Below are positions 47,952 through 64,000 of a stretch of 64,000 nt of DNA, one piece after another; position 1 is the stretch's first letter; the number at the start of each line of letters is the position of its first letter. The stretch covers positions 571,048-635,047 of the forward strand of contig JAFWYG010000005.1 of NCBI GenBank assembly GCA_017522765.1, in the 5' to 3' direction. A program made the translations under genes and the position numbers. The notes below the pieces were generated by a model, which saw nothing but the letters and a program-made list of their open reading frames with translations, searched no databases and was not told where the DNA came from. Source of the DNA: Clostridia bacterium. Lineage in GTDB: Bacteria > Bacillota > Clostridia > TANB77 > UBA1234.

Positions 47952-50900
47952 TTACTCTTTAAACATATTTACGAATTCTTCTTCATTTATTTCGCCATGT
48001 TCTAACAAATATTCAACTACATTAGACATCTTATCTTTGTTATCTCTAATTAATTCTTTAACCTCTTCAAAACATTTTTTCAAGATTCTATTTTCTTCAT
48101 CATATATTGTTTTTTCCAATGCTGTATTATTTGAAGATACTTGTGCTAAACCTAAATCGGACATGCCGTATCTTGTAATCATGTTTCTAGCAACTCTTGT
48201 AGCATGCTCTAAATCAGAGGTTCCACCACTCTTATAGAATCCTAAGAACACTTCTTCAGCAGCAATACCTGCTAGCGATCTCTTTATCGAATTCATTAAT
48301 TCTTCTTTCGAATGAACGTAAGCCGCATTCGAATTGTCATACTCAACATATCCTAAAGCTCCCCAACCTTCTGCTTTACACGTAATCTTTTTGATACCAC
48401 ATCTCTTAACTAACAAGTATCCAACAGTTGCGTGACCAACTTCGTGAATCGCAGTCTTTCTCATTTCTTCTGGAGTAATCTTACTTGGATCAGCCATAGA
48501 TGCTCCGTCAAGCATTGAATTTGTAATCTCTTGTATTGTTGGAATATCTTCTGCTGTTATCGTTGTTACATCAGTTGGTGATGCAGTACCACTCTTAGAT
48601 TTTTCTGCAAAATTCTTAGAATGATTAACCATTGTCTTTGAAAATACTTTATCTGCAAATCTACCATTGCCAATGTTATCAACCTTGTAGAAATACTTCA
48701 TAACTTCTTTTACTTTTTCTATCGCACCATCGCTTAAAGTTAATCCACTCTTTTCAACTTTTCTTCTAAATATTTCTGTAAGTTCAGAATCAGAATAATC
48801 TTCAAAGTTAAATGTGTAACCAATTCTAGATGCAATACCAGGATTTATATCCAAGAAGTCTCTCATCTCTTTTTTGTATCCAGCAAAAATTACTACAAAC
48901 TCACCTTTATGATCTTCCATTGCTTTGATTAAAGTTGCAACAGCTTCTGCACCATAATCATGTCCCGGACCACCATGACCATTTGCAAGTGAGTATGCTT
49001 CATCTACGAATAATACGCCTCCCATTGCACGTTCTACAACTTCATTTGTTTTAATTGCAGTTTGTCCAACATATGCAGCAACTAAATCTTTTCTTTCAAC
49101 TTCTACAAGTTTATTCTCATGGATAACTCCCATATCAAATAACATCTTTGCAATGATTCTTGCTACAGTTGTTTTACCTGTACCTGGATTTCCAGTGAAT
49201 ATCATATGCAGATTTGAATCAGGAAGATTTATATTTTGTTTTTCCGCCTCTTTAATAAACGATACATATGTGCCTAAAGAAATTATTTCTTTCTTCAAAC
49301 TTTCCATACCAACAATCTTAGCTAAAGCTTCTTCAACATTTGCACTAGTACTAATTCCGCTTTCAGTAAGCTCTTCAATAGTTGGAATGTCTGCTTCAGT
49401 TATAAGTTCTATATTTTCTCTATCGGCCAAAGCATGTTTCATCAAAGTTTTTTGAATTACTTTATCAACGAAACGACCATTACCAAAGTTCTTTCTCTTA
49501 ACGAAATAATCACAAACTCTTTTTAATGGAACATCAATATCGTCAGCAAATTTAAAACCTGCTTTCTTCATCTTCATATAGAACATTTCCATTAATTCTT
49601 TTACGTTATAATCTTCGAAGTTAAATGTATAACCAATTCTAGATGCAATACCAGGATTTACATCGAGGAATGTTTTCATCTCATCTCTGTAACCTGCAAA
49701 GATTACTATCAAACTTTCTTTATGATCTTCCATCGCTTTAATCAATGTTGCAATAGCTTCAGCACCAAGTTTATCAGATGCAAGTGTGTATGCTTCGTCA
49801 ATAAATAGTACACCGCCCATTGCATGTTCTATTATCTCATTAGTTTTAATAGCAGTTTCTCCACCATGAGTACCAATTAAATCTTTTCTTTCAACTTCAA
49901 CAAGTTTATTCTCATGGATAACTTCCATATCAAATAGCATCTTCGAAATAATTCTAGCGATTGTAGTTTTACCAGTACCCGGATTACCTGTGAATATCAT
50001 ATGCATATTTGTGCTAGGAATGTTTAGTTTCTTTTGTTCTGCTTTCTTAACAAATTTAGCATACTTACCAAAAGTCCTAATTTCATTCTTCACATTTTCC
50101 ATACCGATAATCTTTTCAAGCATCTCTTCAGCAGTTTCATGCTTACCATTTTTAGACTCGTTTTGATTTAATTGTTCAATGCTTGGAATGTCTTTCTCAG
50201 TAATCATCTTCAAGTCTTCAGAATCACCCAAAGCATGATTCATCAAAGTTTCTTGAATTACTTTATCTACAAAACGACCATTACCAAAACTCTTTCTCTT
50301 CGAATAATAGCTAAAGATTCTCTTAAGTGGAACGTAAACATCATCACCACATTCAAAACCATTTTTTCTAATCTTCACACGGAAGATTTCGATCAATTCT
50401 TCAACTGTATAATCAGGGAAATCAAAAGTATAACCTATTCTAGAAGCTATACCAGGATTGATATCCAAGAAGTCTTTCATCTCTTTTTGATATCCTGCAA
50501 AAATAACAACTAGCTTATCTTTGTGATCTTCCATTGCTTTAATTAAAGTTGCAATAGCTTCACTACCAAAGTCGTTTTTACTTTCACTTGCTAAAGTGTA
50601 TGCTTCATCAACGAATAACACACCACCCATAGCTTTATCTATAACTTCAGTTGTTTTTGTTGCAGTTTGTCCAATATATTCTGCAACTAAATCTTTTCTC
50701 TCAACTTCAACAAGTTTATTTTCTTTTACAACACCAAGATCAAAAAGCATCTTCGCCATAATCCTTGCAACAGTTGTCTTACCAGTACCAGGATTACCTG
50801 TGAATATCATATGCATATTTGAAGAAGCTACTTTCAAACCATTTGCTTTGGCTTGCAATTGGAAGAACATATACTTTTCAAACTCTTTAACTTTTTCTTT

Positions 50901-53774
50901 TACACTATCTAGACCAATGATGTTATCCAAAGATTCTTTCTTATATATGTTTGGTGGGAACACCAATTCATTTCTTGAATTTGCGTAGTTAGCAAGATAA
51001 TTAACAATCTCCGGCTTACTAAATGGCATGAACTTTTGATTCAAGCTCACATACTCATTAAATTGTTTTTTATATTCCTCTTCTGTCTCTCTAAGCTTCG
51101 CAGACAAATCCGGATTCAATATTTTCTTGTAACTTACAAACATATCATCTAAAGAATATGTTGGAATATTAATTATATTATTTTGATAAACGAATTTAAG
51201 TCTTGCATCAAGATCCAAGAAAGATTCAATTTCATCAGGCGTTGCATTGATAATTACATAACCTTTAGAAGTAATATTTGCAAGCACGTCAATAGCATGT
51301 TTTATCATCTTCTTATCAAGATAATTTTTGTTGTAAAAATAGAAATCAGAAACAAATTCGCTAATAGAATCAAGCACATAAATCGCATTTGCTTCTAAAT
51401 TGTTTCTTCTATTAACTGTATATCCACCTCTGTATTTGATGTTGTTATTATCTTTTTTGAAACTTGGTTTTTCCTCTATTTCCAAATCATAATAAACTAA
51501 CTTTTCATCTTTATTGATTCTTAAATCAGTAGTGTGATAATAAAGTTTTGCAAAATGAGATGCCGGAATTTTTCTTACATTATCAATTTGATTTTGATTC
51601 TTAATAAGTTCAATAATCTTATCAATAAAGTTATTCTTTGCAGTCTCATCTTCACCAGCAACAATGCAGTGGAAATTAGTTTTACTACTTTCCATGATGC
51701 TGTTAATTGTCACATTCAGATTCTCAATCTTACCATCATAAGAACCTTTTAAATCTTGAAGTTTTTCTTCTTTCTTTGCATTTAACTCATCAATTTTTTC
51801 TTGTATAAAAGTATTTCTCTTAGCATCAATCTCATCTTTGTGAGCAGCATAAAACTCTCTATCTTCTTGTATCTTATGCTCTTGACCAGACTTAGTTAAA
51901 TACAAAATATATGCAGCAACAACAATTGCACAATAAGGCATTCTACAACTATATGAACCGCACAAATCATCAACTTCAACATTTGGTTTTCTATCTAAAG
52001 CTTTTGCTTTTTCCCAACTTTCTATCGGATTAATTTTATTAATATCAAAATCCGAAAATTGTGAATCAGCACAAGAGAAAAGTTCATCAAAATTCATGTA
52101 ACCATCTTTATCTAAAGATCTGCGAATTCTTATCATGTTTCTTTTTACAATTTCTTGTGCAAAATCAAAAGCTTTATCACTTACATTTTTCAAACCATTC
52201 TTTGTATTCCATTTAAAAGTAAAGAATCCATTATCATCTTTATTTACGTTTTTATATTTTTCTCTTGCAGAAAGCTTATCTCTCAAAAGATTTTTATTCT
52301 TCAAATACAATATGTATGCAGCCAAACGTTTTGGACAAGATTGATACTTACAAGTAAAACAAGAATCAGTACGAAAGAACTTTCCAGTACCAACTTTCCA
52401 AGTTCCACCTTTTACATTCACTCTGAAATTTTTATCTGCATTAGCTTTTTCAAGGAACTCATCATCAGTTTCATCACGATCACAAAAACCATATAATTTA
52501 GAACCAATTGCAACCGTATTATTTTCAAAAGCTAAACTAAGACTACCACGTTCAATTATATTTAGCGCAACTTCAATAGACTTATCATTTGCAGCATTTA
52601 AAAAGTCATCTTCGTCCCAATCAAAATCATAAGCTTTATTTTCAGAATTTCCAGCCTCAATTCGCGCAACAATTTGATCATAATTTAATGCAGGTGCTTC
52701 TGATTTTGGTGTAGACACTTCTTGTTCTGATTTAACTGGTGGTTCTAGTTTTGGTTTTTCAGCCAAGTGTACCGTCTTGTCCGCTGGCGGCGGCACAACC
52801 TTCTTTGCATTCTCATCTCTAAATTTAGGAGGTATCGCACCTTTAACATTCTCCATCTTAGGAGGTGTAGGATTTTTTATCGGTTCCTCTAGTTTAATGT
52901 GTTCTTCAACTTTAATTGGTTCGTCGATTTTAATTGGATCATCAAGTTTAATTGGTTCTTCAATCTTTATCGGATCTTCTACCTTGATTGGATCTTCGAT
53001 TTTTATTGGTTCCTCTACCTTAACCGTTTCTTCTTTCTTAATTGGTTCAACCGGAACCACTGGCTCTACCAAGGTTATTGGAGATATATCATCAACGATA
53101 GGTTCATCAACTTTTATAGGTTCGATGGGTTTTACTTGAGGAACTTCATCCTCCTCAGTTAAAACATTAAGCGTAATCGGTTCATCCTTTACCAACGGTA
53201 CAAAATCTGAAGGCAAATCAGAAAGTTTAATCGAAGTAGAATCTTCTTCTTTTTTTGTTGCTTCAGCCTTCGGCTCCATTCTCTTAGGAGCAGGTTTGGC
53301 CTTAAGCTTTGTCACATACTCATCAACCAATTTCTCGTATAATCTATATGCATCTTTATATTCATCCGTTCCATTTGCATATCTTTTAATACTGCTCGCA
53401 ATATAAAAAATCTCAACAAAAGAAACTATATCATCAAAATTATTTTCAAACTTTAACTCGTCAACAGTTTTAATAATTGCTGTGTTTTTCTCTTCATCAG
53501 ACAAAGCTTCAAATCTCAACATTCTAGCATTGTCTTCAAGCAAAGAAATAATATTTCCTATGTGCGAAGCATTAACTCCATCCTCAGAAAAATACATAGG
53601 AAAACGCGCAACAATCTTTTTATTATCAACTTCAAAAGCTCGATTCGCATCATCAGGACAAGCTATAAAATATTTTTTCGTTTCTTCATCAGGTATTCCA
53701 TAACCGATTAAATATTTATTTAACAGTATCTCTAAAACCGAAACACCATCGTTGAAACCAGTTTCCTTATCCAT
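47952..53774 (-). CDS. Giant (1940 aa) multidomain protein: N-terminal domain, EPIK proline/glutamate repeats, Cys-rich duplicated modules, three tandem SpoVK/CbbX-type AAA+ ATPase modules and a C-terminal FtsH-type M41 zinc metallopeptidase domain; no TM segment
   Basis: Walker A three times (MIFTGNPGTGKTT[VI]ARI) and Walker B three times (GGVLF[VI]DEAY[TS]LA). HEVGHATVGYLL...GGTSDLEHATRVARNMITRYGMSD is the M41 HExxH plus helical bundle. The AAYILYL Cys-flanked motif is duplicated. Strong RBS AGGGGGA. Confidence 0.8.
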   Translation of the reverse strand: MDKETGFNDGVSVLEILLNKYLIGYGIPDEETKKYFIACPDDANRAFEVDNKKIVARFPMYFSEDGVNASHIGNIISLLEDNARMLRFEALSDEEKNTAIIKTVDELKFENNFDDIVSFVEIFYIASSIKRYANGTDEYKDAYRLYEKLVDEYVTKLKAKPAPKRMEPKAEATKKEEDSTSIKLSDLPSDFVPLVKDEPITLNVLTEEDEVPQVKPIEPIKVDEPIVDDISPITLVEPVVPVEPIKKEETVKVEEPIKIEDPIKVEDPIKIEEPIKLDDPIKIDEPIKVEEHIKLEEPIKNPTPPKMENVKGAIPPKFRDENAKKVVPPPADKTVHLAEKPKLEPPVKSEQEVSTPKSEAPALNYDQIVARIEAGNSENKAYDFDWDEDDFLNAANDKSIEVALNIIERGSLSLAFENNTVAIGSKLYGFCDRDETDDEFLEKANADKNFRVNVKGGTWKVGTGKFFRTDSCFTCKYQSCPKRLAAYILYLKNKNLLRDKLSAREKYKNVNKDDNGFFTFKWNTKNGLKNVSDKAFDFAQEIVKRNMIRIRRSLDKDGYMNFDELFSCADSQFSDFDINKINPIESWEKAKALDRKPNVEVDDLCGSYSCRMPYCAIVVAAYILYLTKSGQEHKIQEDREFYAAHKDEIDAKRNTFIQEKIDELNAKKEEKLQDLKGSYDGKIENLNVTINSIMESSKTNFHCIVAGEDETAKNNFIDKIIELIKNQNQIDNVRKIPASHFAKLYYHTTDLRINKDEKLVYYDLEIEEKPSFKKDNNNIKYRGGYTVNRRNNLEANAIYVLDSISEFVSDFYFYNKNYLDKKMIKHAIDVLANITSKGYVIINATPDEIESFLDLDARLKFVYQNNIINIPTYSLDDMFVSYKKILNPDLSAKLRETEEEYKKQFNEYVSLNQKFMPFSKPEIVNYLANYANSRNELVFPPNIYKKESLDNIIGLDSVKEKVKEFEKYMFFQLQAKANGLKVASSNMHMIFTGNPGTGKTTVARIMAKMLFDLGVVKENKLVEVERKDLVAEYIGQTATKTTEVIDKAMGGVLFVDEAYTLASESKNDFGSEAIATLIKAMEDHKDKLVVIFAGYQKEMKDFLDINPGIASRIGYTFDFPDYTVEELIEIFRVKIRKNGFECGDDVYVPLKRIFSYYSKRKSFGNGRFVDKVIQETLMNHALGDSEDLKMITEKDIPSIEQLNQNESKNGKHETAEEMLEKIIGMENVKNEIRTFGKYAKFVKKAEQKKLNIPSTNMHMIFTGNPGTGKTTIARIISKMLFDMEVIHENKLVEVERKDLIGTHGGETAIKTNEIIEHAMGGVLFIDEAYTLASDKLGAEAIATLIKAMEDHKESLIVIFAGYRDEMKTFLDVNPGIASRIGYTFNFEDYNVKELMEMFYMKMKKAGFKFADDIDVPLKRVCDYFVKRKNFGNGRFVDKVIQKTLMKHALADRENIELITEADIPTIEELTESGISTSANVEEALAKIVGMESLKKEIISLGTYVSFIKEAEKQNINLPDSNLHMIFTGNPGTGKTTVARIIAKMLFDMGVIHENKLVEVERKDLVAAYVGQTAIKTNEVVERAMGGVLFVDEAYSLANGHGGPGHDYGAEAVATLIKAMEDHKGEFVVIFAGYKKEMRDFLDINPGIASRIGYTFNFEDYSDSELTEIFRRKVEKSGLTLSDGAIEKVKEVMKYFYKVDNIGNGRFADKVFSKTMVNHSKNFAEKSKSGTASPTDVTTITAEDIPTIQEITNSMLDGASMADPSKITPEEMRKTAIHEVGHATVGYLLVKRCGIKKITCKAEGWGALGYVEYDNSNAAYVHSKEELMNSIKRSLAGIAAEEVFLGFYKSGGTSDLEHATRVARNMITRYGMSDLGLAQVSSNNTALEKTIYDEENRILKKCFEEVKELIRDNKDKMSNVVEYLLEHGEINEEEFVNMFKE

Positions 53775-54679: not shown

Positions 54680-54957
54680 AAAAATCTCTCCTTCATTCTT
54701 AGCAGCTTGTAACTTTAGATTTATTTTATCACAAGCTACACTCTCTTTAAATTTGGTTGTAAGTATAAAAAAAGAACCTCCCTTCACAAACAGCAAAAAC
54801 AACCATAATTTTGCTATGGTTAAAATTTTTGCCATTCATAAAGAAAGATTCTCAACATTCTTTATTATAATTTCTCCGGTAACATCACGCGAATGGACGA
54901 ATTGAGATGTTACGAATAGATTATAGCATGGATTTGTCAGTAAATCAATGTTTTAAA

Positions 54958-55761
54958 TTACTCATTTATTAATTGGTTGTCTGCTATTAAAACGCTCTTT
55001 CCATTTTCAATTTTAACGCAATCCTTATATCGATTATTAAACAAATCTTTATATTCTATATAAATTTCACTTATACTAGGCACCTCAACGCCGCTATATT
55101 GATACATTCCTAAATCCGTTATTACAAGATTCATTTCCTTTTCTGAGGCAACATGAATTCTATCTTCATATTTATTTAAATATACTTTTTCAATTGTTGG
55201 CTCTGCATCATTTTCATTCTTATATAATTTTGAAATAATATATGATTTGTCAACATCTATTGCAGCCATCGTTTGCCCAGAATTTAAAATTCTTATAATA
55301 TATTTGTCGGAAGTTTCTTTTTGGTTATCAGAAAAATATATGTATCCATCTAAACCGCTATTAGCAAATCTAGAATTATTTGGAAGTTCTAGTCTTACAT
55401 TTAAGTTTGGACGCTGTGATTCTCTAACATTTTCTGTGTTCGCCTCTCTGTCCATTCTAGTAATGACTATTAAAAATACTGCACTAATTAGAGTTCCTGC
55501 ATATGTACCCAAGAAAGATAACCAATCATAATTCAGTGTTAAATTTTGAGTGAATTTAAAAACAGAAAACCAATCATATCTATCAAAGTAATACAATATT
55601 ACTGGTCCAAAAAATATCCAAAATATAAACTGATGTATCGCTTTATCTCTTTCATTACACATTTTATATTCAACAATTCCTTTTCTTATGTATTCTATAA
55701 TTCTATATACCGGAAACGGAAATATAATAATTATTAACAATAATAAATGCCAAACTTTCAT
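54958..55761 (-). CDS. Membrane protein (3 N-terminal TM plus a soluble domain), hypothetical; 24 bp downstream of the OLD-family gene
   Basis: TM helices LLLLIIIIFPFPVY, IFWIFFGPVILYYF and LGTYAGTLISAVFLIVIT. Confidence 0.5.
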   Translation of the reverse strand: MKVWHLLLLIIIIFPFPVYRIIEYIRKGIVEYKMCNERDKAIHQFIFWIFFGPVILYYFDRYDWFSVFKFTQNLTLNYDWLSFLGTYAGTLISAVFLIVITRMDREANTENVRESQRPNLNVRLELPNNSRFANSGLDGYIYFSDNQKETSDKYIIRILNSGQTMAAIDVDKSYIISKLYKNENDAEPTIEKVYLNKYEDRIHVASEKEMNLVITDLGMYQYSGVEVPSISEIYIEYKDLFNNRYKDCVKIENGKSVLIADNQLINE

Positions 55762-55784
55762 TTTAAATCTCCTTTTTCGCGAAA

Positions 55785-57560
55785 TTATAACAGCTTTCCA
55801 ATAAGTATGTCAAATTTTTTTATTGTTTCTTCATCATATAGAAACTCTTTTTTTTCTATTTTTTTCAGTACAGCTAAAGAATAGTATTTTTTTTCACCTT
55901 CATAATCTTTATTATTAATCCCAATTTCATTTCTATCTCTGTCTGAAAACAATGATTCTATGGTAATACTTTGTTCTTCTTTTGGAAGTCGTTCTGCATC
56001 TACAAATATAATATCATTTTCTTGTACTAAAAGTTTTTTTACCAGAACCTTATATTCATTCCTACCATCTCTATCCTGATCCAACAGAACTTTATATTTA
56101 TACCCCCACCCCATTAATATAGAAACTAAATTGTGAATGTTCGAAACTCCTGATGATGGAATTATATTACAGGTATCCTCGATTCCTTTTTGTATAAAAT
56201 ATGCTTTTAAATAATTAAAATCCGAAATTCCTTCTGTAATAATATTATTTTTTTCTGTACTCATTGCTGAAAAACTATACCCCATTTTCATTCCTATAGC
56301 TTCAAGAATTGGAGTAATAGTCTCTTGTTTTCCTGCCATAGAATGCGGCAAAGAATGGTATGCATTACTTATATTACTATTTTCATTTTCATCTTTTATT
56401 ATGGTTCTAACTCTATCTAAATGTTCTTGATATATCATAGAAGGATGTTGGGTTGTATATATTATTTGATTGTTTTTAGATACAAAATTTTCAAATAATT
56501 CTAGTATCATTTTTTGTGCATTAACATGTAAAAACACACCTGGTTCATCTAGCAAAACAACAAAATTTTCCAAATTTGTTTTTTGAGTTTGCGCAAGCAA
56601 CTGAATATAAAAGCTCAAATACCATTTCAGTCCATTACTTCTTTCGCTTAAATTCAGATATTTCTTGTTCGTTTTCACAAGAAAATTTATATATTCATTA
56701 TTAAAATTCATTCTTAATTCAACATTATCTTGTTTATAAAATTGATTAAATCCTTCCATAAATTTTTGAATTTTTTTATTGATTTCTTCCTGAAAATTAT
56801 ATTTATCGCCATCACAAGATAAAATCCAAAATCTTTTTACCTCATCCTTTTCAACACCTATTACTTTCAAAAAACTAGTCAACACATCATCATGCTTTCC
56901 GTTATCTAACACACTGTTTTTCGTATATTTTGATTCTAATTCTACATTTTTTAAAAATATAAAACGTGGTAATAAAGAATATATTGTTTTTATACGTTTA
57001 ATAAACTCTTCAAAAGTTTTTAAAAATTCTGAATATTTACTATTTCTACTCAAATTTTTAATCATAGTATCCATCATAACTGAATATACAAAAACTTTAT
57101 TCTCTATATTTTTAATATTTTCAATCATTTTATTCATAGTAATGTTATGACTCGGTTCACTAAAAGTAATTCCTTTAGATAGGTTTATCAATTCATTTTT
57201 ATAAAATTGTATATTATTATTTTTGCTTATTATTTCAGATAATCCACCTTCAAATTCAACAGCGCCATTTCCTTTTATTGTAAATTTTGTTTCTTTTTCC
57301 GAAAGATAAATTTCCTTTTCTTTTTCATAAGGGAATGCAATCATTGAAATTACAATTTCATCGTTTATATAATTTTTATTTTTGTCTTCATCATTTAAAT
57401 TTGAAAATCCATCAAAATTCAATTTACTAATAGCGTTAAGAAAATTACTTTTACCAGATTCATTTTTACCAACAATTGTTGTAATTTCTCCCAAATCCAT
57501 TCTATTATTTTCTTCTCCAAAAGACTTAAAATTTTTTATTTTTATAGATGTTATTTTCAT
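55785..57560 (-). CDS. OLD-family nuclease (N-terminal ABC-type ATPase plus C-terminal TOPRIM), class-1 architecture
   Basis: Walker A GKNESGKSN, signature-like LSERSNGLK, Walker B VVLLDEPGVFLH, and H-loop TTQHP. TOPRIM IITEGISD and LLDQDRDG. Confidence 0.8.
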   Translation of the reverse strand: MKITSIKIKNFKSFGEENNRMDLGEITTIVGKNESGKSNFLNAISKLNFDGFSNLNDEDKNKNYINDEIVISMIAFPYEKEKEIYLSEKETKFTIKGNGAVEFEGGLSEIISKNNNIQFYKNELINLSKGITFSEPSHNITMNKMIENIKNIENKVFVYSVMMDTMIKNLSRNSKYSEFLKTFEEFIKRIKTIYSLLPRFIFLKNVELESKYTKNSVLDNGKHDDVLTSFLKVIGVEKDEVKRFWILSCDGDKYNFQEEINKKIQKFMEGFNQFYKQDNVELRMNFNNEYINFLVKTNKKYLNLSERSNGLKWYLSFYIQLLAQTQKTNLENFVVLLDEPGVFLHVNAQKMILELFENFVSKNNQIIYTTQHPSMIYQEHLDRVRTIIKDENENSNISNAYHSLPHSMAGKQETITPILEAIGMKMGYSFSAMSTEKNNIITEGISDFNYLKAYFIQKGIEDTCNIIPSSGVSNIHNLVSILMGWGYKYKVLLDQDRDGRNEYKVLVKKLLVQENDIIFVDAERLPKEEQSITIESLFSDRDRNEIGINNKDYEGEKKYYSLAVLKKIEKKEFLYDEETIKKFDILIGKLL

Positions 57561-57597
57561 TTTTCTTCTCCTTATAATATTTCGTTTTTATAAAAAA

Positions 57598-58065
57598 CTA
57601 ATGTTCTAGCCAATACCCAAAGTTGTTATACCCATCATCCTGCACCCAGTCATATACATTAGCTATTTGAGAAAAATAAACATCCTCACCTCTGCAATCT
57701 TTTCCTAAAATACCAAAGCAAATGCTTCCTTTGTTTGATGTCAAACCAGTTCTCATATCTTTTATTTTGTGAATATATACACCAATAATTTTATTCCCTC
57801 TTTTATAGCTTTCTTGAAGTTCGTACCTCACAAATTTTCTGCTAGCCGTTTCTTCTCCTATTAATACAACTGTAACACTGGTACCTTTCAATTGTTCATC
57901 AATCCAATTGTATATAGCGGGATCTCCCCCTAATTTTATTTTTTCAAAATCTGCTTTATCAATAAAACCAGCCGCTTTATTTCCTGGTATTACCCAACTA
58001 TTTCTAACTACATTTGCTCTATTAACATCGTTCGCATAGTGAAAACTAAAAAATACATTTTTCAT
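57598..58065 (-). CDS. TIR-like domain protein of the ThsB / DUF1863 type (Thoeris TIR component-like)
   Basis: VFFSFHYANDVNRANVVRNSW ... SVTVVLIGEETASRKFVRYELQESYKRGNKIIGVYIH ... VYDWVQDDGYNNFGYW. This is the pattern and the conserved C-terminal tail that I recall for Bacillus ThsB and DUF1863, not verified by search. Confidence 0.65.
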   Translation of the reverse strand: MKNVFFSFHYANDVNRANVVRNSWVIPGNKAAGFIDKADFEKIKLGGDPAIYNWIDEQLKGTSVTVVLIGEETASRKFVRYELQESYKRGNKIIGVYIHKIKDMRTGLTSNKGSICFGILGKDCRGEDVYFSQIANVYDWVQDDGYNNFGYWLEH

Positions 58066-58081
58066 ATAAATCCCTCCATTA

Positions 58082-58537
58082 TTATATAAATTTCAACAAA
58101 ATTGTAATAACTATAAACAATATGTAATATCCCACTATAGAAAATGAAGTAATCGACTCTAACATCAAGCCCACTATTTCATATTTAAAATCTGTATTTT
58201 TGGGCTTCATATTATATATCTCGATTGTTTTTAATTTTCCTTTGTTTAAATCATTTACAAACACATTGTATTTTTGAACATATACTCGTTCTAACGCCAA
58301 ATAATACGCATCCATTAAAGCTCCAATAAAAGTTATTACTATACCAATACACCAGTATGGTTCAAAGATTTCTATAGCCGATAAAACCGTGGCATAAATT
58401 GTGTATATAACCGCAACAAGAGCTTTTGTGTTAGAACTATTAGTCGCCATACGCGAAATATTGTTTTGTAAAAATCCCAAATATGTACAGACAGATTGTT
58501 CGTTTTTGTTTTTTAAGATATTACTATATTTTTTCAT
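58082..58537 (-). CDS. Small 3-TM membrane protein (151 aa), candidate membrane effector/partner of the TIR-like gene
   Basis: TM helices ALVAVIYTIYATVLSAI, WCIGIVITFIGALMDAYYL and SFSIVGYYILFIVITILLKFI. 16-bp gap to the TIR-like gene. RBS GAGGAGG. Promoter TTGATA-17-TAAGAT upstream. Confidence 0.55.
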   Translation of the reverse strand: MKKYSNILKNKNEQSVCTYLGFLQNNISRMATNSSNTKALVAVIYTIYATVLSAIEIFEPYWCIGIVITFIGALMDAYYLALERVYVQKYNVFVNDLNKGKLKTIEIYNMKPKNTDFKYEIVGLMLESITSFSIVGYYILFIVITILLKFI

Positions 58538-58663
58538 ATTACCTCCTCACACAAAAATAAGTAGAGTTCAAAATCCCTACTTATCTTAACTTTCCATATA
58601 AATTTTATCAAAAACGAACATTCTTTCCCATGGACAAAATAAAGCAAACTCTCTGTTTTCTAA

Positions 58664-59035
58664 CTATTTTGTCGCATTTTGTGTCATTTTGTAACTTTCA
58701 AGAAGCAAATCAATATTTTCATATTTCAAAGCATCAAGCGCACCTTCCAAAATTTTTAATTTTCTATCAAAGGTTATATTCGAGCTCTGTAAAAACTTCT
58801 TAAAAATTTCTGTATATTCACTTTCACTTATTACTTTAGTTTCAAATAAATTATCTAGACTAACATTACATTCTTTCGCGATTTTTATAGCATCTTTTAT
58901 ATTCATATCTCGTTTACCATTTTCCCAACTAGATACTTTAGATCTACTTATATCTAATTTTTCTGCAAAATCTTCTTGTGTATAGTTATTTTTTCTTCTT
59001 ATTTCTCTTAGTCTGTTTATAATAGATTTTTTCAT
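58664..59035 (-). CDS. XRE-family HTH transcriptional regulator
   Basis: LREIRRKNNYTQEDFAEKLDISRSKVSSWENGKR is a Cro/CI-type HTH. Confidence 0.8.
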   Translation of the reverse strand: MKKSIINRLREIRRKNNYTQEDFAEKLDISRSKVSSWENGKRDMNIKDAIKIAKECNVSLDNLFETKVISESEYTEIFKKFLQSSNITFDRKLKILEGALDALKYENIDLLLESYKMTQNATK

Positions 59036-59178
59036 TAGCGCACCTTCTTCAAATTTTTCAATACGAATATATAACTCTAAAAAGCTCTAAAAAGCGACAA
59101 ATTTATGCAAATAAAAAAGAGACGCTTCACAGAGCTTCTCTTTTTTAACCTTCCTATTTTTATACACTTCAGCAAACC

Positions 59179-59526
59179 CTAGCAGCTCAACTTATATAAA
59201 GCATACTGATTTAAAGACACACCTTCTCTTTCAGCTTCTACAGTTAATTTATAATGTAATGACTTAGGAATTCTCACAACGAATTTGCCACTAAAATCAT
59301 CATATCCTACAGGCATAGGTATTTCTAACCCCGCTTCCAATTTTGCCTCAATCCATAACTTCATTGCTTCTTTTACATTCTCATAAGCTTCTTCAAAAGT
59401 TTCTCCTGAACTTTGACAACCATCCAATTCCAAAACACGAGCATAAAAATAAGTACCACTCTCATCTTTAATTGGTTGTACAATAAAGTTGTATGGCAAC
59501 TCTAAATACTCCTTAATTTTCTTCAT
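59179..59526 (-). CDS. hicB: HicB-family antitoxin
   Basis: N-terminal HicB/UPF0150 fold (YNFIVQPIKDESGTYFYARVLELDGCQSSGETFEEA) and a C-terminal DNA-binding tail (LNQYALYKLS). Confidence 0.75.
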   Translation of the reverse strand: MKKIKEYLELPYNFIVQPIKDESGTYFYARVLELDGCQSSGETFEEAYENVKEAMKLWIEAKLEAGLEIPMPVGYDDFSGKFVVRIPKSLHYKLTVEAEREGVSLNQYALYKLSC

Positions 59527-59583
59527 AAAAGGTCACCTCCAATAATATCTCTTATCATATAAGATACTCTAAAAGCAATTTCT

Positions 59584-59812
59584 TTATTCTCCAATTCTTT
59601 TGAGCACATCTTTAACATATACTGCTTTCAAAGGATTTTCTTCTTTTATCACAATGACATCCCCTCTCTCGTTAATAAAAACTCTGTGAGATGTTCCGTT
59701 TCTTAGCTTTCATATTATATCCATAGTGTTCCAAAACTCTTGTCAATTCTTGATACCTGATTCCATTAGGTTGTCTTTTCATTTTTAATATTAGCTTATC
59801 AACATCCGGCAT
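59584..59812 (-). pseudogene. hicA: hicA toxin gene with a +1/-1 frameshift (229 nt between ATG and stop)
   Basis: Frame 1 reads MPDVDKLILKMKRQPNGIRYQELTRVLEHYGYNMKAKKRN... and frame 2 reads ...SHRVFINERGDVIVIKEENPLKAVYVKDVLKRIGE. Together they reconstruct a HicA/YcfA-like protein with the GSH..F core. Confidence 0.45.
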
Positions 59813-59973: not shown

Positions 59974-60294
59974 CTACTTCTTCCTCTTCTTCGCCTGCAT
60001 TTTCTTAAACTTAATCAAATCTAAAATCTCCGCTTTATCTTCTTTAGACAATTCTTCAAAACTTCTAGCAAAGACTAATGTTTTCTCTTTTTTCTTCTTA
60101 CCCTCCATAAGCTCTTCCATTGTGCAGTTATATATTTTCGCAAATTTAGCTAGTTCCTCTGCAGTAACTTTTCTACCATCGTTTTCAATGTTAGTTATAA
60201 TCACTCTAGAAACTTTAATCATTTTCGCAACGTCTTCTTGTGTTAAACCTTCAGCTTCTCTTATTTCTCTTAATCTTGTTCCCAAACTTTTCAT
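59974..60294 (-). CDS. XRE-family HTH transcriptional regulator
   Basis: LREIREAEGLTQEDVAKMIKVSRVIITNIENDGRKV. RBS GGGGGA before the internal ATG (MKSLG). 4 bp after the NUDIX stop. Confidence 0.75.
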   Translation of the reverse strand: MKSLGTRLREIREAEGLTQEDVAKMIKVSRVIITNIENDGRKVTAEELAKFAKIYNCTMEELMEGKKKKEKTLVFARSFEELSKEDKAEILDLIKFKKMQAKKRKK

Positions 60295-60318
60295 ATGAAT
60301 CCCCCATTTAAACAATTC

Positions 60319-60825
60319 TTACATATTTTCTAAGAACTTGCATACCTTCACAAAGCACGCAATTTGATTCGCATTTAATTCGTTTGTTTCCACCATATGA
60401 TTCAATTCATCCATCGAAAACCATCTAACCTCAGATAGTTCCTCCTCCTGGATTTGCATATCCGCAATGTCCACATCTTTATTCACAAAATACATTTTGT
60501 AGCAATCTCTGCCATCACAACCAGAATCGTATTCGATTAATGTCTCATTAGAAAAATCTAATCCCAACTCTTCTCTTACCTCTGTAATAATTCCCTCAAT
60601 TGGAGTTTCGCCAGCTTTAGGATGTCCACCAGTTACACCCCAGTCGCCACCTTTGCTCTCTACTCTCTTTTGCATAAGGAATTCCCCTTTTGAGTTTCTT
60701 ATCACAATCATAACAACCATAGGATAATACCCTTCAGGAATAGGTTCACCTTTTCTGTAAGTCTTGTCCGTTTTATTACTATTAACATCATATAAATCTC
60801 TTAATTCAGCCATACAATCCACCAT
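60319..60825 (-). CDS. NUDIX hydrolase
   Basis: GGHPKAGETPIEGIITEVREELGL Nudix box. Confidence 0.85.
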   Translation of the reverse strand: MVDCMAELRDLYDVNSNKTDKTYRKGEPIPEGYYPMVVMIVIRNSKGEFLMQKRVESKGGDWGVTGGHPKAGETPIEGIITEVREELGLDFSNETLIEYDSGCDGRDCYKMYFVNKDVDIADMQIQEEELSEVRWFSMDELNHMVETNELNANQIACFVKVCKFLENM

Positions 60826-61764: not shown

Positions 61765-62406
61765 TTATATACCATTCGCTCCATACTCCCCCTCAAACTC
61801 CACCACTATCTCACTCAACCTCTCATCCAAATACTCCATCGCTTTTGCTCTCATCTCTTCCGGTATTCCATAGTAAGCTTCGGCGATGCCGCCTGTGATT
61901 GCGCCGATTGTGTCGCTGTCGCCGCCTATAGAAATTGCATTTCGGATGGCATCTTCGAAACTTGTTGATTCTAGGAATGCGGTGATTGCTTGAGGCACGG
62001 TGCCTTGCCAACTTTCGTTGAACGCGTATCTTGGTCTTATCTCATCCAAAGTGAAGTTCATCGGATAATAGTTTGCATCTATGTAATCGTGAATTTCAGG
62101 AATCGTATGGCCTGTCCTTGCAAGATAGATTGCAACGGCTGTTGCTTCAGCGCCTTTGATACCTTAACAACCACCATAACCACAATGCGGATACAGCCTA
62201 CCGATTTCCTTCATATAGAAAATCGTTTTCTCCGACAAATCCTCAAAACCTTCTTGAGACTCGATTATAGCCTTCGCGATAGCAAGCGACATGATAGAAT
62301 CATCTGTACATTCACAATCGCTATGAAAAATCTCAAACTCTTTATTCTTATTATTTTCAAATTCAAATCTCGAACCGGCGATATCGCCGATGATTGCACC
62401 TAGCAT
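61765..62406 (-). pseudogene. ADP-ribosylglycohydrolase (ARH/DraG family) interrupted by a single in-frame TAA (plus coordinates 62164-62166)
   Basis: N-terminus MLGAIIGDIAGSRFEF (ARH signature). The two ORFs 62164..62406 and 61765..62061 are in the same frame. The sequence continues ...GIKGAEATAVAIYLARTGH...GGDSDTIGAITGGIAEAYYG (the second ARH metal-binding region). Confidence 0.65.
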
Positions 62407-62433: not shown

Positions 62434-63315
62434 TTAGATTGCACCATCAAAAGCATTCTCATGAATGTTCCGAGTAAGATATAACATGTATTCTAATTCA
62501 GCTTCATAGCAGTTATTATCATGTTTTACATTATTATTTTGATACTTAGTATAATTTTCTAATAATGTATAATACATATTTGATATTTCTTTACTTATGC
62601 CACCATCTCTCAAGAATTTCAATATTTCTTTAGCATTATTTTCTAAGCTCTTTTTATTTTTAAAAATTTCTTTCATGAGTAATTCTAAACTCAATCTTAA
62701 ATCATCAATTATATTTCTAATATCTTCTTTTTTAGCATACTTTTCTATTGCTTTTTCATATAGTGCTTTTACTTTTGGATATTCATTCAACCAATTTAAC
62801 ATATCATTTACCAAAGCATTATCTAACTCTTTTGCTCCTCTAGGATAAAGCAAATATTTTTTGGCACTTGTTTTCAAAATAACTATGTCTATACAAAACA
62901 GATCTGCAACTTCATTTATTTCCTTACAAAGTTTATTCTTTTCCGAAGCAGAAATTATATCACTTGGCATTAAAAAAATAACTTGAAGATATTTTATTAT
63001 ATTAGAAAGAGAACCTTTTTTAAAAGCTTTTCCAATGCATGTTTGTTCAAACTTTATGTAATTAGCTCCAAAGCAGTCACTCTTAACATTTCGTTGGCCA
63101 TAATCAATTTCTGTAAAAAAATCTATAGGCCTGCCATCCGAATAATCAATCCCAGTGTATTTTATAAAAATTTCTCTAAAAAAATTGTGTAGCGTAATAT
63201 TTCCAATATTATTTTCTAATATTTTCACTAGAGCATTCCTAAATTTTTCTTCGTTTTCATCATTAGTATAAGCTATATCAAATCTTTTCATTAATTCTTT
63301 TAATTCTTTTTCCAT
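62434..63315 (-). CDS. Hypothetical protein (293 aa) directly downstream of a UvrD-like helicase gene
   Basis: ORF with the RBS GGAGAA. No motif recognised. Confidence 0.5.
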   Translation of the reverse strand: MEKELKELMKRFDIAYTNDENEEKFRNALVKILENNIGNITLHNFFREIFIKYTGIDYSDGRPIDFFTEIDYGQRNVKSDCFGANYIKFEQTCIGKAFKKGSLSNIIKYLQVIFLMPSDIISASEKNKLCKEINEVADLFCIDIVILKTSAKKYLLYPRGAKELDNALVNDMLNWLNEYPKVKALYEKAIEKYAKKEDIRNIIDDLRLSLELLMKEIFKNKKSLENNAKEILKFLRDGGISKEISNMYYTLLENYTKYQNNNVKHDNNCYEAELEYMLYLTRNIHENAFDGAI

Positions 63316-63369: not shown

Positions 63370-64000
63370 CTATAACAAACCATTTTTTATTCCAAAAACA
63401 TTTTTTTCATCATCTACAACAAAAGTCAAACTATTAACAGCTCTGGTCATTCCAACATATAATTTATTTTTTGTTCCTGAATTTAAAGTTGCTTTTCCTT
63501 TAGATATGTAGTTTTTCAAATCATTTGTTGGATACAACAATACTCTATCATACGTTGCACCCTTTGATTTTCCCATAGTTATCGCACATGACAACTTACT
63601 AACATTTGTTCTAGAATCATATATAATTTGAACAGGTCTATATTTATTTATATATTCTTCAATCTGTTCTTTTCTTATTATGAATACCCCCTGATGACTG
63701 TTTTCTTCAATATCATTACATTCCATAGGAGGATATTCGGCATAAAATTTATTTACAAATTCAATAATATCCTTATGACATCTATAACATTTATTTAATG
63801 TCGTATTATCAATATCACACTCAACGGCTTTGCATTCTTTGCGTATATATTCTTCCACATTTCCGTTTGAATATTGTCTGTTTTTTTGCTCATAATGTGT
63901 TTTATAAATTGTTTGTCTCGGATCACCAACCAAAACAACTTCTTCTGCACTGCTCATAAGTTTTTTTATAAACTCCAAATCATAACCAGCCATATCTTGA
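63370..64000 (-). CDS. UvrD/PcrA-like superfamily 1 helicase, C-terminal part (the gene starts beyond the window end)
   Basis: Helicase motifs VVLVGDPRQTIY (motif III-like), CYRCHKDI (IV), ITMGKSKGATYDRV (V) and YVGMTRA (VI). Confidence 0.7.
   Translation of the reverse strand, partial: QDMAGYDLEFIKKLMSSAEEVVLVGDPRQTIYKTHYEQKNRQYSNGNVEEYIRKECKAVECDIDNTTLNKCYRCHKDIIEFVNKFYAEYPPMECNDIEENSHQGVFIIRKEQIEEYINKYRPVQIIYDSRTNVSKLSCAITMGKSKGATYDRVLLYPTNDLKNYISKGKATLNSGTKNKLYVGMTRAVNSLTFVVDDEKNVFGIKNGLL

What the first reader, a model, noticed from the sequence alone, without database searches (positions are those of the whole stretch)
55785..59035. XRE regulator - 3TM protein - ThsB-like TIR - OLD nuclease string: a Thoeris-like locus with no recognisable ThsA
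Four minus-strand genes form a tightly packed, very AT-rich accessory string. An XRE HTH (58664-59035) sits upstream. A 126-bp promoter region follows, then a 151-aa three-helix membrane protein (58082-58537), and after a 16-bp gap a TIR-like protein (57598-58065). The TIR-like sequence (FFSFHY...VVLIGEETASRKFVRYE...VYDWVQDDGYNNF) matches what I recall of Thoeris ThsB/DUF1863. After a further 37-bp gap comes an OLD-family ATPase-TOPRIM nuclease (55785-57560). Known Thoeris systems pair ThsB with a ThsA that carries SIR2-SLOG or TM-Macro domains. Here the only adjacent candidates are a minimal 3TM protein without a Macro or SLOG sensor, and an OLD nuclease. Either this is a new Thoeris variant whose effector is a bare membrane protein and/or an OLD nuclease, or it is a fusion of two defence modules under one HTH regulator. 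Both options appear undescribed.
Basis: partly seen in the sequence, partly recalled or inferred. Interest (0 to 1): 0.85.

Follow-up and report, generated by a model that had tools for sequence, protein, structure and literature searches.

The report
Type V Thoeris beside standalone OLD nuclease
The small membrane protein and the TIR protein form an already described kind of two-gene anti-phage system (type V Thoeris), and the OLD nuclease and XRE regulator next to it are unrelated neighbours in a crowded defence island, so the locus is ordinary.

Summary
All four genes are at the stated coordinates, and the domain calls hold: XRE HTH, a three-helix membrane protein, a ThsB-type TIR, and an OLD ATPase-Toprim. 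The "no recognisable effector, undescribed" reading does not hold.

**The 3TM–TIR pair.** The 3TM protein belongs to a large family (about 2,900 cluster representatives). PADLOC already lists it as PDC-M50A, partner of the TIR component PDC-M50B. In about 22 independent loci from bacteria and archaea, a member sits 4–34 bp (about 130 bp in one) from a ThsB gene. The TIRs come from at least four subfamilies. Their relatives in Yirmiya et al. 2025 (bioRxiv) are labelled "DUF2270 – Type V" Thoeris, whose ThsF effector has three membrane helices. Homologues of both validated type V ThsB proteins are also adjacent to members of this family (hhalign 99.6–99.8%).

**The OLD nuclease.** No 3TM locus carries OLD. 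None of about 87 OLD-homologue loci carries a ThsF or TIR gene. Its relatives are single genes in unrelated contexts, as for class 1 OLD.

**The XRE** is not conserved with the pair.

The region is a defence island that also holds Gabija, PDC-S32, NUDIX and HicB.

Verdict: a new member of a known kind, of low interest.

The parts
58082..58537 (-). thsF-like gene: a 151-aa three-TM membrane protein and the predicted Thoeris type V effector (PADLOC family PDC-M50A)
   Evidence: PADLOC PDC-M50A E=7.8e-14. The family has 2,934 representatives. It is always adjacent to a ThsB gene. hhalign gives 99.6-99.8% to the small proteins next to homologues of the validated type V ThsBs. Three TM segments with a positively charged N-terminus. 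AF2 pLDDT 95.
57598..58065 (-). thsB: a 155-aa TIR-domain sensor and signal synthase (DUF1863/ThsB_TIR type), catalytic Glu at E82
   Evidence: PF08937 E=4.7e-24. PADLOC ThsB 9.1e-60 and PDC-M50B 8.8e-52. BcThsB 6LHY/9B7D E~2e-30 with VRYE aligned. 59-68% identical to TIRs labelled 'DUF2270 - Type V' in Table S1 of Yirmiya et al..
58538..58663 (-). 126-bp intergenic region upstream of thsF. It holds a weak sigma-70-like site (58611-58583) and an 11-nt inverted repeat (58554-58564 / 58577-58587) between the -10 and the RBS, a possible operator
   Evidence: The repeat is at chance level for this AT-rich DNA and is only a lead.
58664..59035 (-). XRE-family HTH gene (123 aa). It is an adjacent, non-conserved neighbour and a possible local regulator
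   Evidence: HTH_3 E=1.2e-16. No homologue next to any other 3TM-TIR locus except one distant HTH about 2.7 kb away in L010. A terminator-like hairpin at 59112-59147 separates it from hicB.
55785..57560 (-). OLD-family ABC-ATPase/Toprim nuclease (591 aa) with a class-1-like single-gene context. It is a separate defence gene, not a Thoeris component
   Evidence: AAA_15 1.3e-18. PADLOC Old 8e-27. TsOLD 6P74 is the top PDB hit. Invariant Walker A/B, E443 and D494xD496. Homologues are single genes in unrelated contexts, with no ThsF or TIR nearby.

Best explanation
Genes 58082-58537 and 57598-58065 form a two-gene type V Thoeris anti-phage system. ThsB (the TIR protein) senses phage infection and uses its catalytic glutamate (E82) to convert NAD+ into a cyclic ADP-ribose isomer, most likely 3'cADPR. 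The 151-aa three-helix membrane protein (ThsF family, equal to PADLOC PDC-M50A) binds that signal at its conserved, positively charged cytoplasmic face (Q24, R29, S34, K38, D76, Y79, E83). It then oligomerises or opens as a membrane channel, which stops growth of the infected cell.

The OLD ATPase-Toprim nuclease downstream is an independent single-gene (class-1-like) defence gene. The XRE upstream is a non-conserved neighbour. All of them lie in a defence island that also carries Gabija.

Shown here: the domain identities, the conserved adjacency, and the family links to type V. Inferred: the signal identity, the binding site, the channel mechanism and the defence phenotype.
For: 1. The TIR is a ThsB with the catalytic Glu aligned.
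2. The 3TM protein hits PDC-M50A, and the TIR hits its partner PDC-M50B.
3. A family member lies 4-34 bp from a TIR gene in 16 distinct metagenome/MAG loci, and next to one in 6 plasmid loci (gaps up to about 130 bp), including haloarchaea, cyanobacteria and Firmicutes. At least four ThsB subfamilies are involved.
4. Those TIRs are 52-70% identical to TIRs labelled 'DUF2270 - Type V' in Table S1 of Yirmiya et al. 2025.
5. Plasmid homologues of both experimentally validated type V ThsBs are each followed by a 135-aa protein of this family. The Bacillus sp. 1NLA3E homologue is 67% identical and the B. thuringiensis DAR 81934 homologue is 45% identical. Support for the 135-aa proteins: PADLOC 1.8e-52; hhalign 99.65% and 99.8%.
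6. Type V ThsF is described as having three membrane helices, matching. DUF2270 is the Pfam family hit by the most members, weakly (14 of 100).
7. OLD, XRE and P267 homologues are absent from all other 3TM loci.
8. OLD homologues in 7 look-up loci and 80 metagenome loci (49 with at least 1.2 kb upstream) have no ThsF and no TIR of the four modelled subfamilies. The positive control worked.
9. The flanks hold a complete Gabija system, PDC-S32, NUDIX/PDC-S07 and HicB, so this is a defence island.
Against: - The window protein and 13 other tested members give no PF10028 (DUF2270) hit by hmmscan. The best weak hit in the family is E=1.6e-3.
- The equation 'this family = ThsF' therefore rests on TIR-label concordance and on neighbours of homologues of the validated ThsBs. 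I could not obtain the sequences of the validated effectors themselves.
- Table S1 also has a separate '3TM' effector class.
- OLD follows thsB by only 37 bp on the same strand with no terminator. Co-transcription, and hence some local functional coupling, cannot be excluded.
- One of the two validated type V systems did not respond to added 3'cADPR, so the signal is uncertain.
Confidence: 0.82

Rival explanations
1. Composite system. In this lineage the OLD nuclease has been recruited into the Thoeris operon as a second effector or partner. The XRE would control one transcript, thsF-thsB-old.
For: The genes share a strand. The thsB-old gap is 37 bp. No terminator-like site lies anywhere in 54800-59700, and no strong promoter lies in the gap. 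The arrangement is identical on all 10 contigs that carry this exact protein.
Against: Those 10 contigs are the same element. OLD is absent from about 22 other ThsF-ThsB loci. ThsF and TIR are absent from about 87 OLD-homologue loci. OLD has no recognisable nucleotide-sensor domain beyond its ABC ATPase. Tight packing of unrelated systems is normal in defence islands, and one is demonstrated here.
Confidence: 0.07
2. The 3TM protein is a divergent SLATT-type effector. The pair would then be closer to type VII Thoeris (canonical cADPR signal) than to type V.
For: A marginal SLATT_1 hit on the window protein (E=0.14, residues 31-99). One family member hits SLATT_6 at E=0.0077. SLATT effectors are also small helical-hairpin membrane proteins paired with TIRs.
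Against: Both hits are far below Pfam thresholds, and SLATT families are hit by 1 of 100 members each against 14 of 100 for DUF2270. All four associated TIR subfamilies are labelled type V, not type VII, in Table S1. Neighbours of homologues of the validated type V ThsBs belong to this family.
Confidence: 0.05
3. The TIR is an NAD+-depleting effector rather than a signal producer. The membrane protein would then be a sensor or anchor, not the killer.
For: Yirmiya et al. themselves caution that in non-verified configurations the TIR might be the effector. No biochemical data exist for this locus.
Against: The TIR is closest to B. cereus ThsB, a signal-producing TIR. Type V systems were validated with TIR-produced 3'cADPR, and effector toxicity was triggered by the molecule.
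Confidence: 0.03

Closest known systems
Type V Thoeris (ThsB + ThsF/'DUF2270'), Yirmiya et al. 2025, bioRxiv 10.64898/2025.12.03.692087
   Same: A two-gene TIR plus small three-TM effector operon. The ThsB is 59-68% identical to TIRs labelled type V. The effector is in the same family as the neighbours of homologues of both validated type V ThsBs. It sits in a defence island.
   Different: The gene order here is effector then TIR, whereas the validated Bacillus systems are TIR then effector; both orders occur in the family. There is no direct PF10028 hmmscan hit. The host is an uncultured Clostridia bacterium. Nothing has been tested experimentally for this locus.
PADLOC candidate system PDC-M50 (A+B), PADLOC-DB v2.0.0
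   Same: Both genes hit the two component models (A 7.8e-14, B 8.8e-52) and are adjacent.
   Different: PDC-M50 is only a candidate label with no mechanism attached.
Type I Thoeris (B. cereus MSX-D12 ThsB/ThsA)
   Same: The ThsB is the closest solved relative (6LHY/9B7D, E~2e-30, 49% identity over the TIR core) with the catalytic Glu conserved. It probably makes the same 3'cADPR-type signal.
   Different: There is no SIR2-SLOG ThsA. The effector is a membrane protein, not an NADase.
Type VII Thoeris / CBASS SLATT effectors
   Same: A small helical membrane effector activated by a TIR-made nucleotide, presumed to form an oligomeric membrane lesion.
   Different: SLATT Pfam hits are not significant. 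The associated TIR subfamilies are labelled type V.
Class 1 OLD nucleases (phage P2 Old; Thermus scotoductus OLD, PDB 6P74)
   Same: An N-terminal ABC ATPase with Walker A/B and a C-terminal Toprim with E and DxD. It is 591 aa long. Its homologues have a single-gene context, and TsOLD is the top PDB hit.
   Different: Sequence similarity to TsOLD is low (E=3.3e-5). Class 1 genes are described as lying away from other defence genes, whereas here the gene sits inside a defence island, 37 bp after thsB.
Gabija (GajA/GajB, class 2 OLD)
   Same: OLD-family architecture.
   Different: There is no adjacent UvrD-type helicase, and the GajA models score far lower than 'Old'. A genuine Gabija pair lies about 5 kb away in the same island (GajA 1e-188, GajB 2.6e-121).

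Membership tests
Thoeris type V (ThsB + ThsF) | A TIR-domain ThsB gene in the operon | tested here: met
   PF08937 E=4.7e-24; PADLOC ThsB 9.1e-60
Thoeris type V (ThsB + ThsF) | Catalytic glutamate of the TIR present | tested here: met
   E82 in FVRYE aligns with the VRYE glutamate of B. cereus ThsB 6LHY/9B7D. That this residue (E85) is catalytic is from my own knowledge of Ofir et al. 2021; I did not re-read the paper here.
Thoeris type V (ThsB + ThsF) | An adjacent small effector with three membrane-spanning helices | tested here: met
   Hydropathy segments at about 38-57, 61-79 and 129-151. AF2 helices at pLDDT 95. 16-bp gap to thsB.
Thoeris type V (ThsB + ThsF) | Effector matches Pfam PF10028 (DUF2270) | tested here: inconclusive
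   No hit for the window protein even at E<=10. 14 of 100 family members give weak hits, best E=1.6e-3. 0 of 13 further members hit.
Thoeris type V (ThsB + ThsF) | Effector in the same family as those paired with type V ThsBs | tested here: met
   Proteins next to homologues of the validated 1NLA3E and DAR 81934 ThsBs match the family profile at 99.65% and 99.8%. TIRs next to family members are 52-70% identical to 'DUF2270 - Type V' TIRs.
Thoeris type V (ThsB + ThsF) | 3'cADPR signal, homo-oligomeric channel and phage defence | not testable with these tools
   Needs LC-MS, multimer modelling (AF3) and plaque assays.
PADLOC PDC-M50 | Adjacent genes matching the PDC-M50A and PDC-M50B models | tested here: met
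   A: 7.8e-14; B: 8.8e-52
Thoeris types I/II (ThsA SIR2-SLOG or TM-Macro) | An adjacent SIR2-SLOG or Macro-domain effector | tested here: not met
   No such domain was found in any gene scanned between 47952 and 63993 or in L040.
Thoeris type VII (SLATT effector) | Effector matches a SLATT family | tested here: not met
   SLATT_1 E=0.14, 12.6 bits against a 26.3 cut-off
OLD family nuclease | N-terminal ABC ATPase with Walker A and Walker B | tested here: met
   AAA_15 1.3e-18. G31KNESGKS38 and VVLLDE339 are invariant in A3.
OLD family nuclease | C-terminal Toprim with a conserved Glu and DxD | tested here: met
   PF20469 gives 20.5 bits, below the 23.2 cut-off. PADLOC Old 8e-27 covers residues 256-499. 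E443 and D494-Q-D496 are invariant. Several homologues carry PF20469.
OLD class 1 | A single gene, with no adjacent UvrD helicase (class 2) or retron RT (class 3) | tested here: met
   The window neighbours are thsB and an unannotated TM protein. Homologues stand alone in unrelated contexts. Class definitions are from PMC10568477.
Gabija (class 2 OLD) | An adjacent GajB UvrD-like helicase | tested here: not met
   None adjacent to this OLD. The island's real GajA/GajB pair is elsewhere (L040 2423-5168).

The most novel reading that the evidence does not exclude
In this Clostridia lineage a class-1-type OLD nuclease has been captured into a type V Thoeris transcript (XRE-controlled thsF-thsB-old). 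It would act with the system, for example as a second, DNA-targeting arm that works alongside the membrane effector. That would give the first functional link between TIR signalling and an OLD nuclease, and a context in which a class 1 OLD defends.
Probability: 0.05. Interest if true: 0.55.

Novelty: new member of a known kind. Interest (0 to 1): 0.15.

Why it matters
It matters little beyond annotation. The locus adds an uncultured gut/rumen-type Clostridia example to type V Thoeris.

One practical point follows. The ThsF effector family is large (thousands of clusters, spanning bacteria and haloarchaea) but is invisible to Pfam, NCBIfam and RefSeq naming, where members are called 'hypothetical protein'. 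Readers and pipelines without the PADLOC or new DefenseFinder models will therefore keep reporting such loci as 'Thoeris without an effector'.

The tight OLD juxtaposition is a reminder that short intergenic gaps in defence islands do not imply a shared system.

Tried and rejected
- **AFDB fold search:** the library was not available.
- **Direct Pfam DUF2270 test:** done on the window protein, on 25 close members, on 100 diverse members, and on 13 further members. Only weak minority hits appeared.
- **RefSeq naming on plasmids:** every family member is named 'hypothetical protein'.
- **Literature search for 'PDC-M50':** nothing found.
- **Genome scan with the diverse alignment A2:** failed because there was no conserved stretch, so I used A1 instead.
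- **First attempts to reach a validated ThsF through ThsB homologues:** the B. cereus and Priestia loci L032, L033 and L037 had no small effector next to the TIR.
- **SLATT (type VII) reading:** considered and rejected as not significant.
- **PARIS/AbiL/Septu-type readings of the OLD gene:** the AriA, AbiLi and PtuA hits cover only the ATPase half, no partner gene is present, and 'Old' is the best model.
- **XRE operator search:** found only chance-level repeats.
Full report
**Observation.** The gaps are 126, 16 and 37 bp, and each gene has its own Shine-Dalgarno sequence. The stretch has 26-27% GC, at the low end for the window but not unique.

Profile searches confirm every domain call.
- XRE: HTH_3, E=1.2e-16.
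- TIR: ThsB_TIR PF08937, E=4.7e-24.
- OLD: AAA_15, 1.3e-18, plus a sub-threshold OLD-like_TOPRIM hit. PADLOC 'Old' gives 8e-27. Among homologues the Walker A, Walker B, Toprim E443 and D494-x-D496 residues are invariant.
- 3TM: three hydrophobic segments and a basic N-terminus. The AlphaFold2 model is confident (pLDDT 95): a long helical hairpin plus a third TM helix.

**What the 3TM-TIR pair is.** PADLOC gave the first clue. The 3TM protein hits PDC-M50A (7.8e-14). The TIR hits both ThsB (9.1e-60) and PDC-M50B (8.8e-52). The pair is therefore already a catalogued candidate system.

The 3TM protein has 29 close homologues. A profile of them finds 2,934 cluster representatives at E<=1e-3. None of the 120 best hits listed for the broader profile carries a Pfam label.

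In every locus I could retrieve, a family member lies 4-34 bp upstream of a TIR gene. This covers 16 distinct metagenome/MAG loci. In one of them (L001) the TIR is degraded. Plasmid loci show the pair too, in either gene order, with gaps from overlapping to about 130 bp: Halorhabdus, Haladaptatus, Priestia, C. botulinum, Ligilactobacillus and Pseudanabaena. The partner TIRs fall into at least four ThsB subfamilies. This is the sensor shuffling typical of Thoeris.

**Link to a described system.** Yirmiya et al. (bioRxiv 10.64898/2025.12.03.692087, Dec 2025) expanded Thoeris to eleven validated types. Type V pairs ThsB with ThsF, a protein 'annotated DUF2270' with three membrane-spanning helices. 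ThsF is modelled as a heptameric channel with basic pockets. In one system it is activated by 3'cADPR.

- Their Table S1 labels the nearest relatives of this window's TIR as 'DUF2270 - Type V' (59-68% identity).
- The same label is given to relatives of all four TIR subfamilies that I found next to the 3TM family (52-70% identity over full length).
- Plasmid homologues of both experimentally validated type V ThsBs are each followed by a 135-aa protein of this family. The Bacillus sp. 1NLA3E homologue is 67% identical, and its 135-aa neighbour scores PADLOC PDC-M50A 1.8e-52 and hhalign 99.65%. The B. thuringiensis DAR 81934 homologue is 45% identical over 90% of its length, and its 135-aa neighbour scores hhalign 99.8%.

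The weak point is the Pfam label itself. The window protein has no PF10028 hit. Only 14 of 100 diverse members give weak hits, although DUF2270 is the family hit by the most members. Thirteen further members give none. I could not obtain the validated effector sequences. I therefore file the pair under type V Thoeris at about 0.8-0.85 confidence, not as certain.

**Mechanism (inferred).** ThsB is closest to B. cereus ThsB (6LHY/9B7D, E~2e-30), with the VRYE glutamate conserved as E82. On phage sensing it should make a cADPR isomer, most likely 3'cADPR.

The nearly invariant residues of the effector are Q24, I27, R29, M30, S34, K38, D76, Y79, L80 and E83. They lie on the cytoplasmic halves of the two long helices, next to the membrane. 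This is the expected place for a nucleotide pocket between protomers. Signal binding would then open or assemble a membrane lesion and arrest the infected cell.

**OLD and XRE.** Neither is part of the system.
- tblastn finds no OLD, no XRE (apart from one distant HTH 2.7 kb away in L010) and no homologue of the downstream 267-aa protein in any other 3TM locus.
- Conversely, OLD homologues at about 52-57% identity are single genes next to an MmeI-type R-M gene, next to an AAA_13 gene, or inside a polysaccharide locus.
- In 80 further metagenome loci (49 with at least 1.2 kb upstream), HMMs for the 3TM family and for four TIR subfamilies find nothing. The positive control worked. The TIR HMM does not cover every ThsB subfamily, but the ThsF HMM found all known loci.
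- By genetic context and architecture this is a class-1-like OLD, using the definitions in PMC10568477. TsOLD 6P74 is the top PDB hit.

Co-transcription with thsB cannot be excluded. The gap is 37 bp and no terminator-like site lies in 54800-59700. A terminator-like hairpin (59112-59147) does separate hicB from the XRE.

**Context.** The exact protein occurs on 10 contigs from an uncultured Clostridia bacterium. The extended contig shows a defence island with these genes in order:
1. A complete Gabija pair (GajA 1e-188, GajB 2.6e-121). The GajB C-terminus is window 63370-63993.
2. A PDC-S32 candidate.
3. A split ADP-ribosylglycohydrolase.
4. NUDIX with a capH-like XRE.
5. HicB.
6. XRE.
7. thsF-thsB.
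8. OLD.
9. A 267-aa membrane protein.
10. A methyltransferase.
11. A 1,940-aa triple-AAA+/M41 protein.

Chance juxtaposition of independent systems is the simplest account of the OLD adjacency.

**Verdict.** This is a new member of a known kind, and interest is low.

Noticed in passing
window 63370-63993 (-), continuing beyond the window end (L040 2423-5168): A complete Gabija system. The ORF at the window edge is the C-terminal part of a GajB UvrD-like helicase (PADLOC GajB 2.6e-121 for the full gene), preceded by GajA (1e-188). The island therefore holds two different OLD-family genes, one class 2 and one class-1-like.
   Followed up: yes
window 62434-63315 (-): A 293-aa protein with no Pfam hit that matches PADLOC candidate PDC-S32 (1.4e-42). 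This is another candidate defence gene between Gabija and the NUDIX gene.
   Followed up: partly
window 61765-62061 and 62164-62406 (-): Two short ORFs match the C-terminal (2.7e-13) and N-terminal (4.7e-5) ends of ADP-ribosylglycohydrolase PF03747, with the middle missing. This is probably a disrupted gene. An ADPR-processing enzyme near a TIR/ADPR-signalling system could be a relic regulator or an anti-defence gene.
   Followed up: partly
window 59974-60825 (-): A NUDIX hydrolase (PADLOC PDC-S07, 4.5e-10) is directly followed by a capH-like XRE (capH 1.8e-15). This may be a regulated NUDIX defence or counter-signalling module. A NUDIX enzyme could in principle hydrolyse ADPR-derived signals.
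   Followed up: no
window 59179-59526 (-) and 59672-59812 (-): A HicB antitoxin gene (5e-14 class hits). The only upstream candidate partner is a 46-aa ORF with no HicA Pfam hit. A terminator-like hairpin at 59112-59147 follows hicB.
   Followed up: partly
window 54958-55761 (-), promoter-like site 55813-55784: A 267-aa membrane protein has no hit in Pfam, NCBIfam or PADLOC and no homologue in any fetched locus. It is preceded by a perfect 12/12 sigma-70 consensus with an extended -10 that overlaps the end of the OLD gene.
   Followed up: partly
window 47952-53774 (-): A 1,940-aa protein has three tandem AAA+ modules, a C-terminal M41 (FtsH-like) peptidase, a proline/glutamate-rich 'EPIKV' repeat region and faint nSTAND3 hits. 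PADLOC gives IetA/TRIP13-like hits. It is an unusual giant and a possible defence ATPase-protease.
   Followed up: no
window 58554-58587: An 11-nt inverted repeat (AAGATAAGTAG-N12-CTACTTATTTT on the minus strand) lies between the predicted -10 and the RBS of thsF. It could be an operator for the adjacent XRE, but it is at chance level for this AT-rich DNA.
   Followed up: partly
L016 4950-6608; L035 1758-3157; L001 6466-6951: Variants of the pair were seen. One ThsF is followed by two ThsBs of different subfamilies next to an integrase (L016). A haloarchaeal plasmid copy has an extra TIR fragment upstream (L035). One locus has a frameshifted, decaying TIR (L001).
   Followed up: partly
family-wide: The ThsF/PDC-M50A family (about 2,900 clusters at 50% identity) carries no Pfam or NCBIfam label and is named 'hypothetical protein' throughout RefSeq plasmids, including many Klebsiella and E. 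coli conjugative plasmids. This is an annotation gap.
   Followed up: partly
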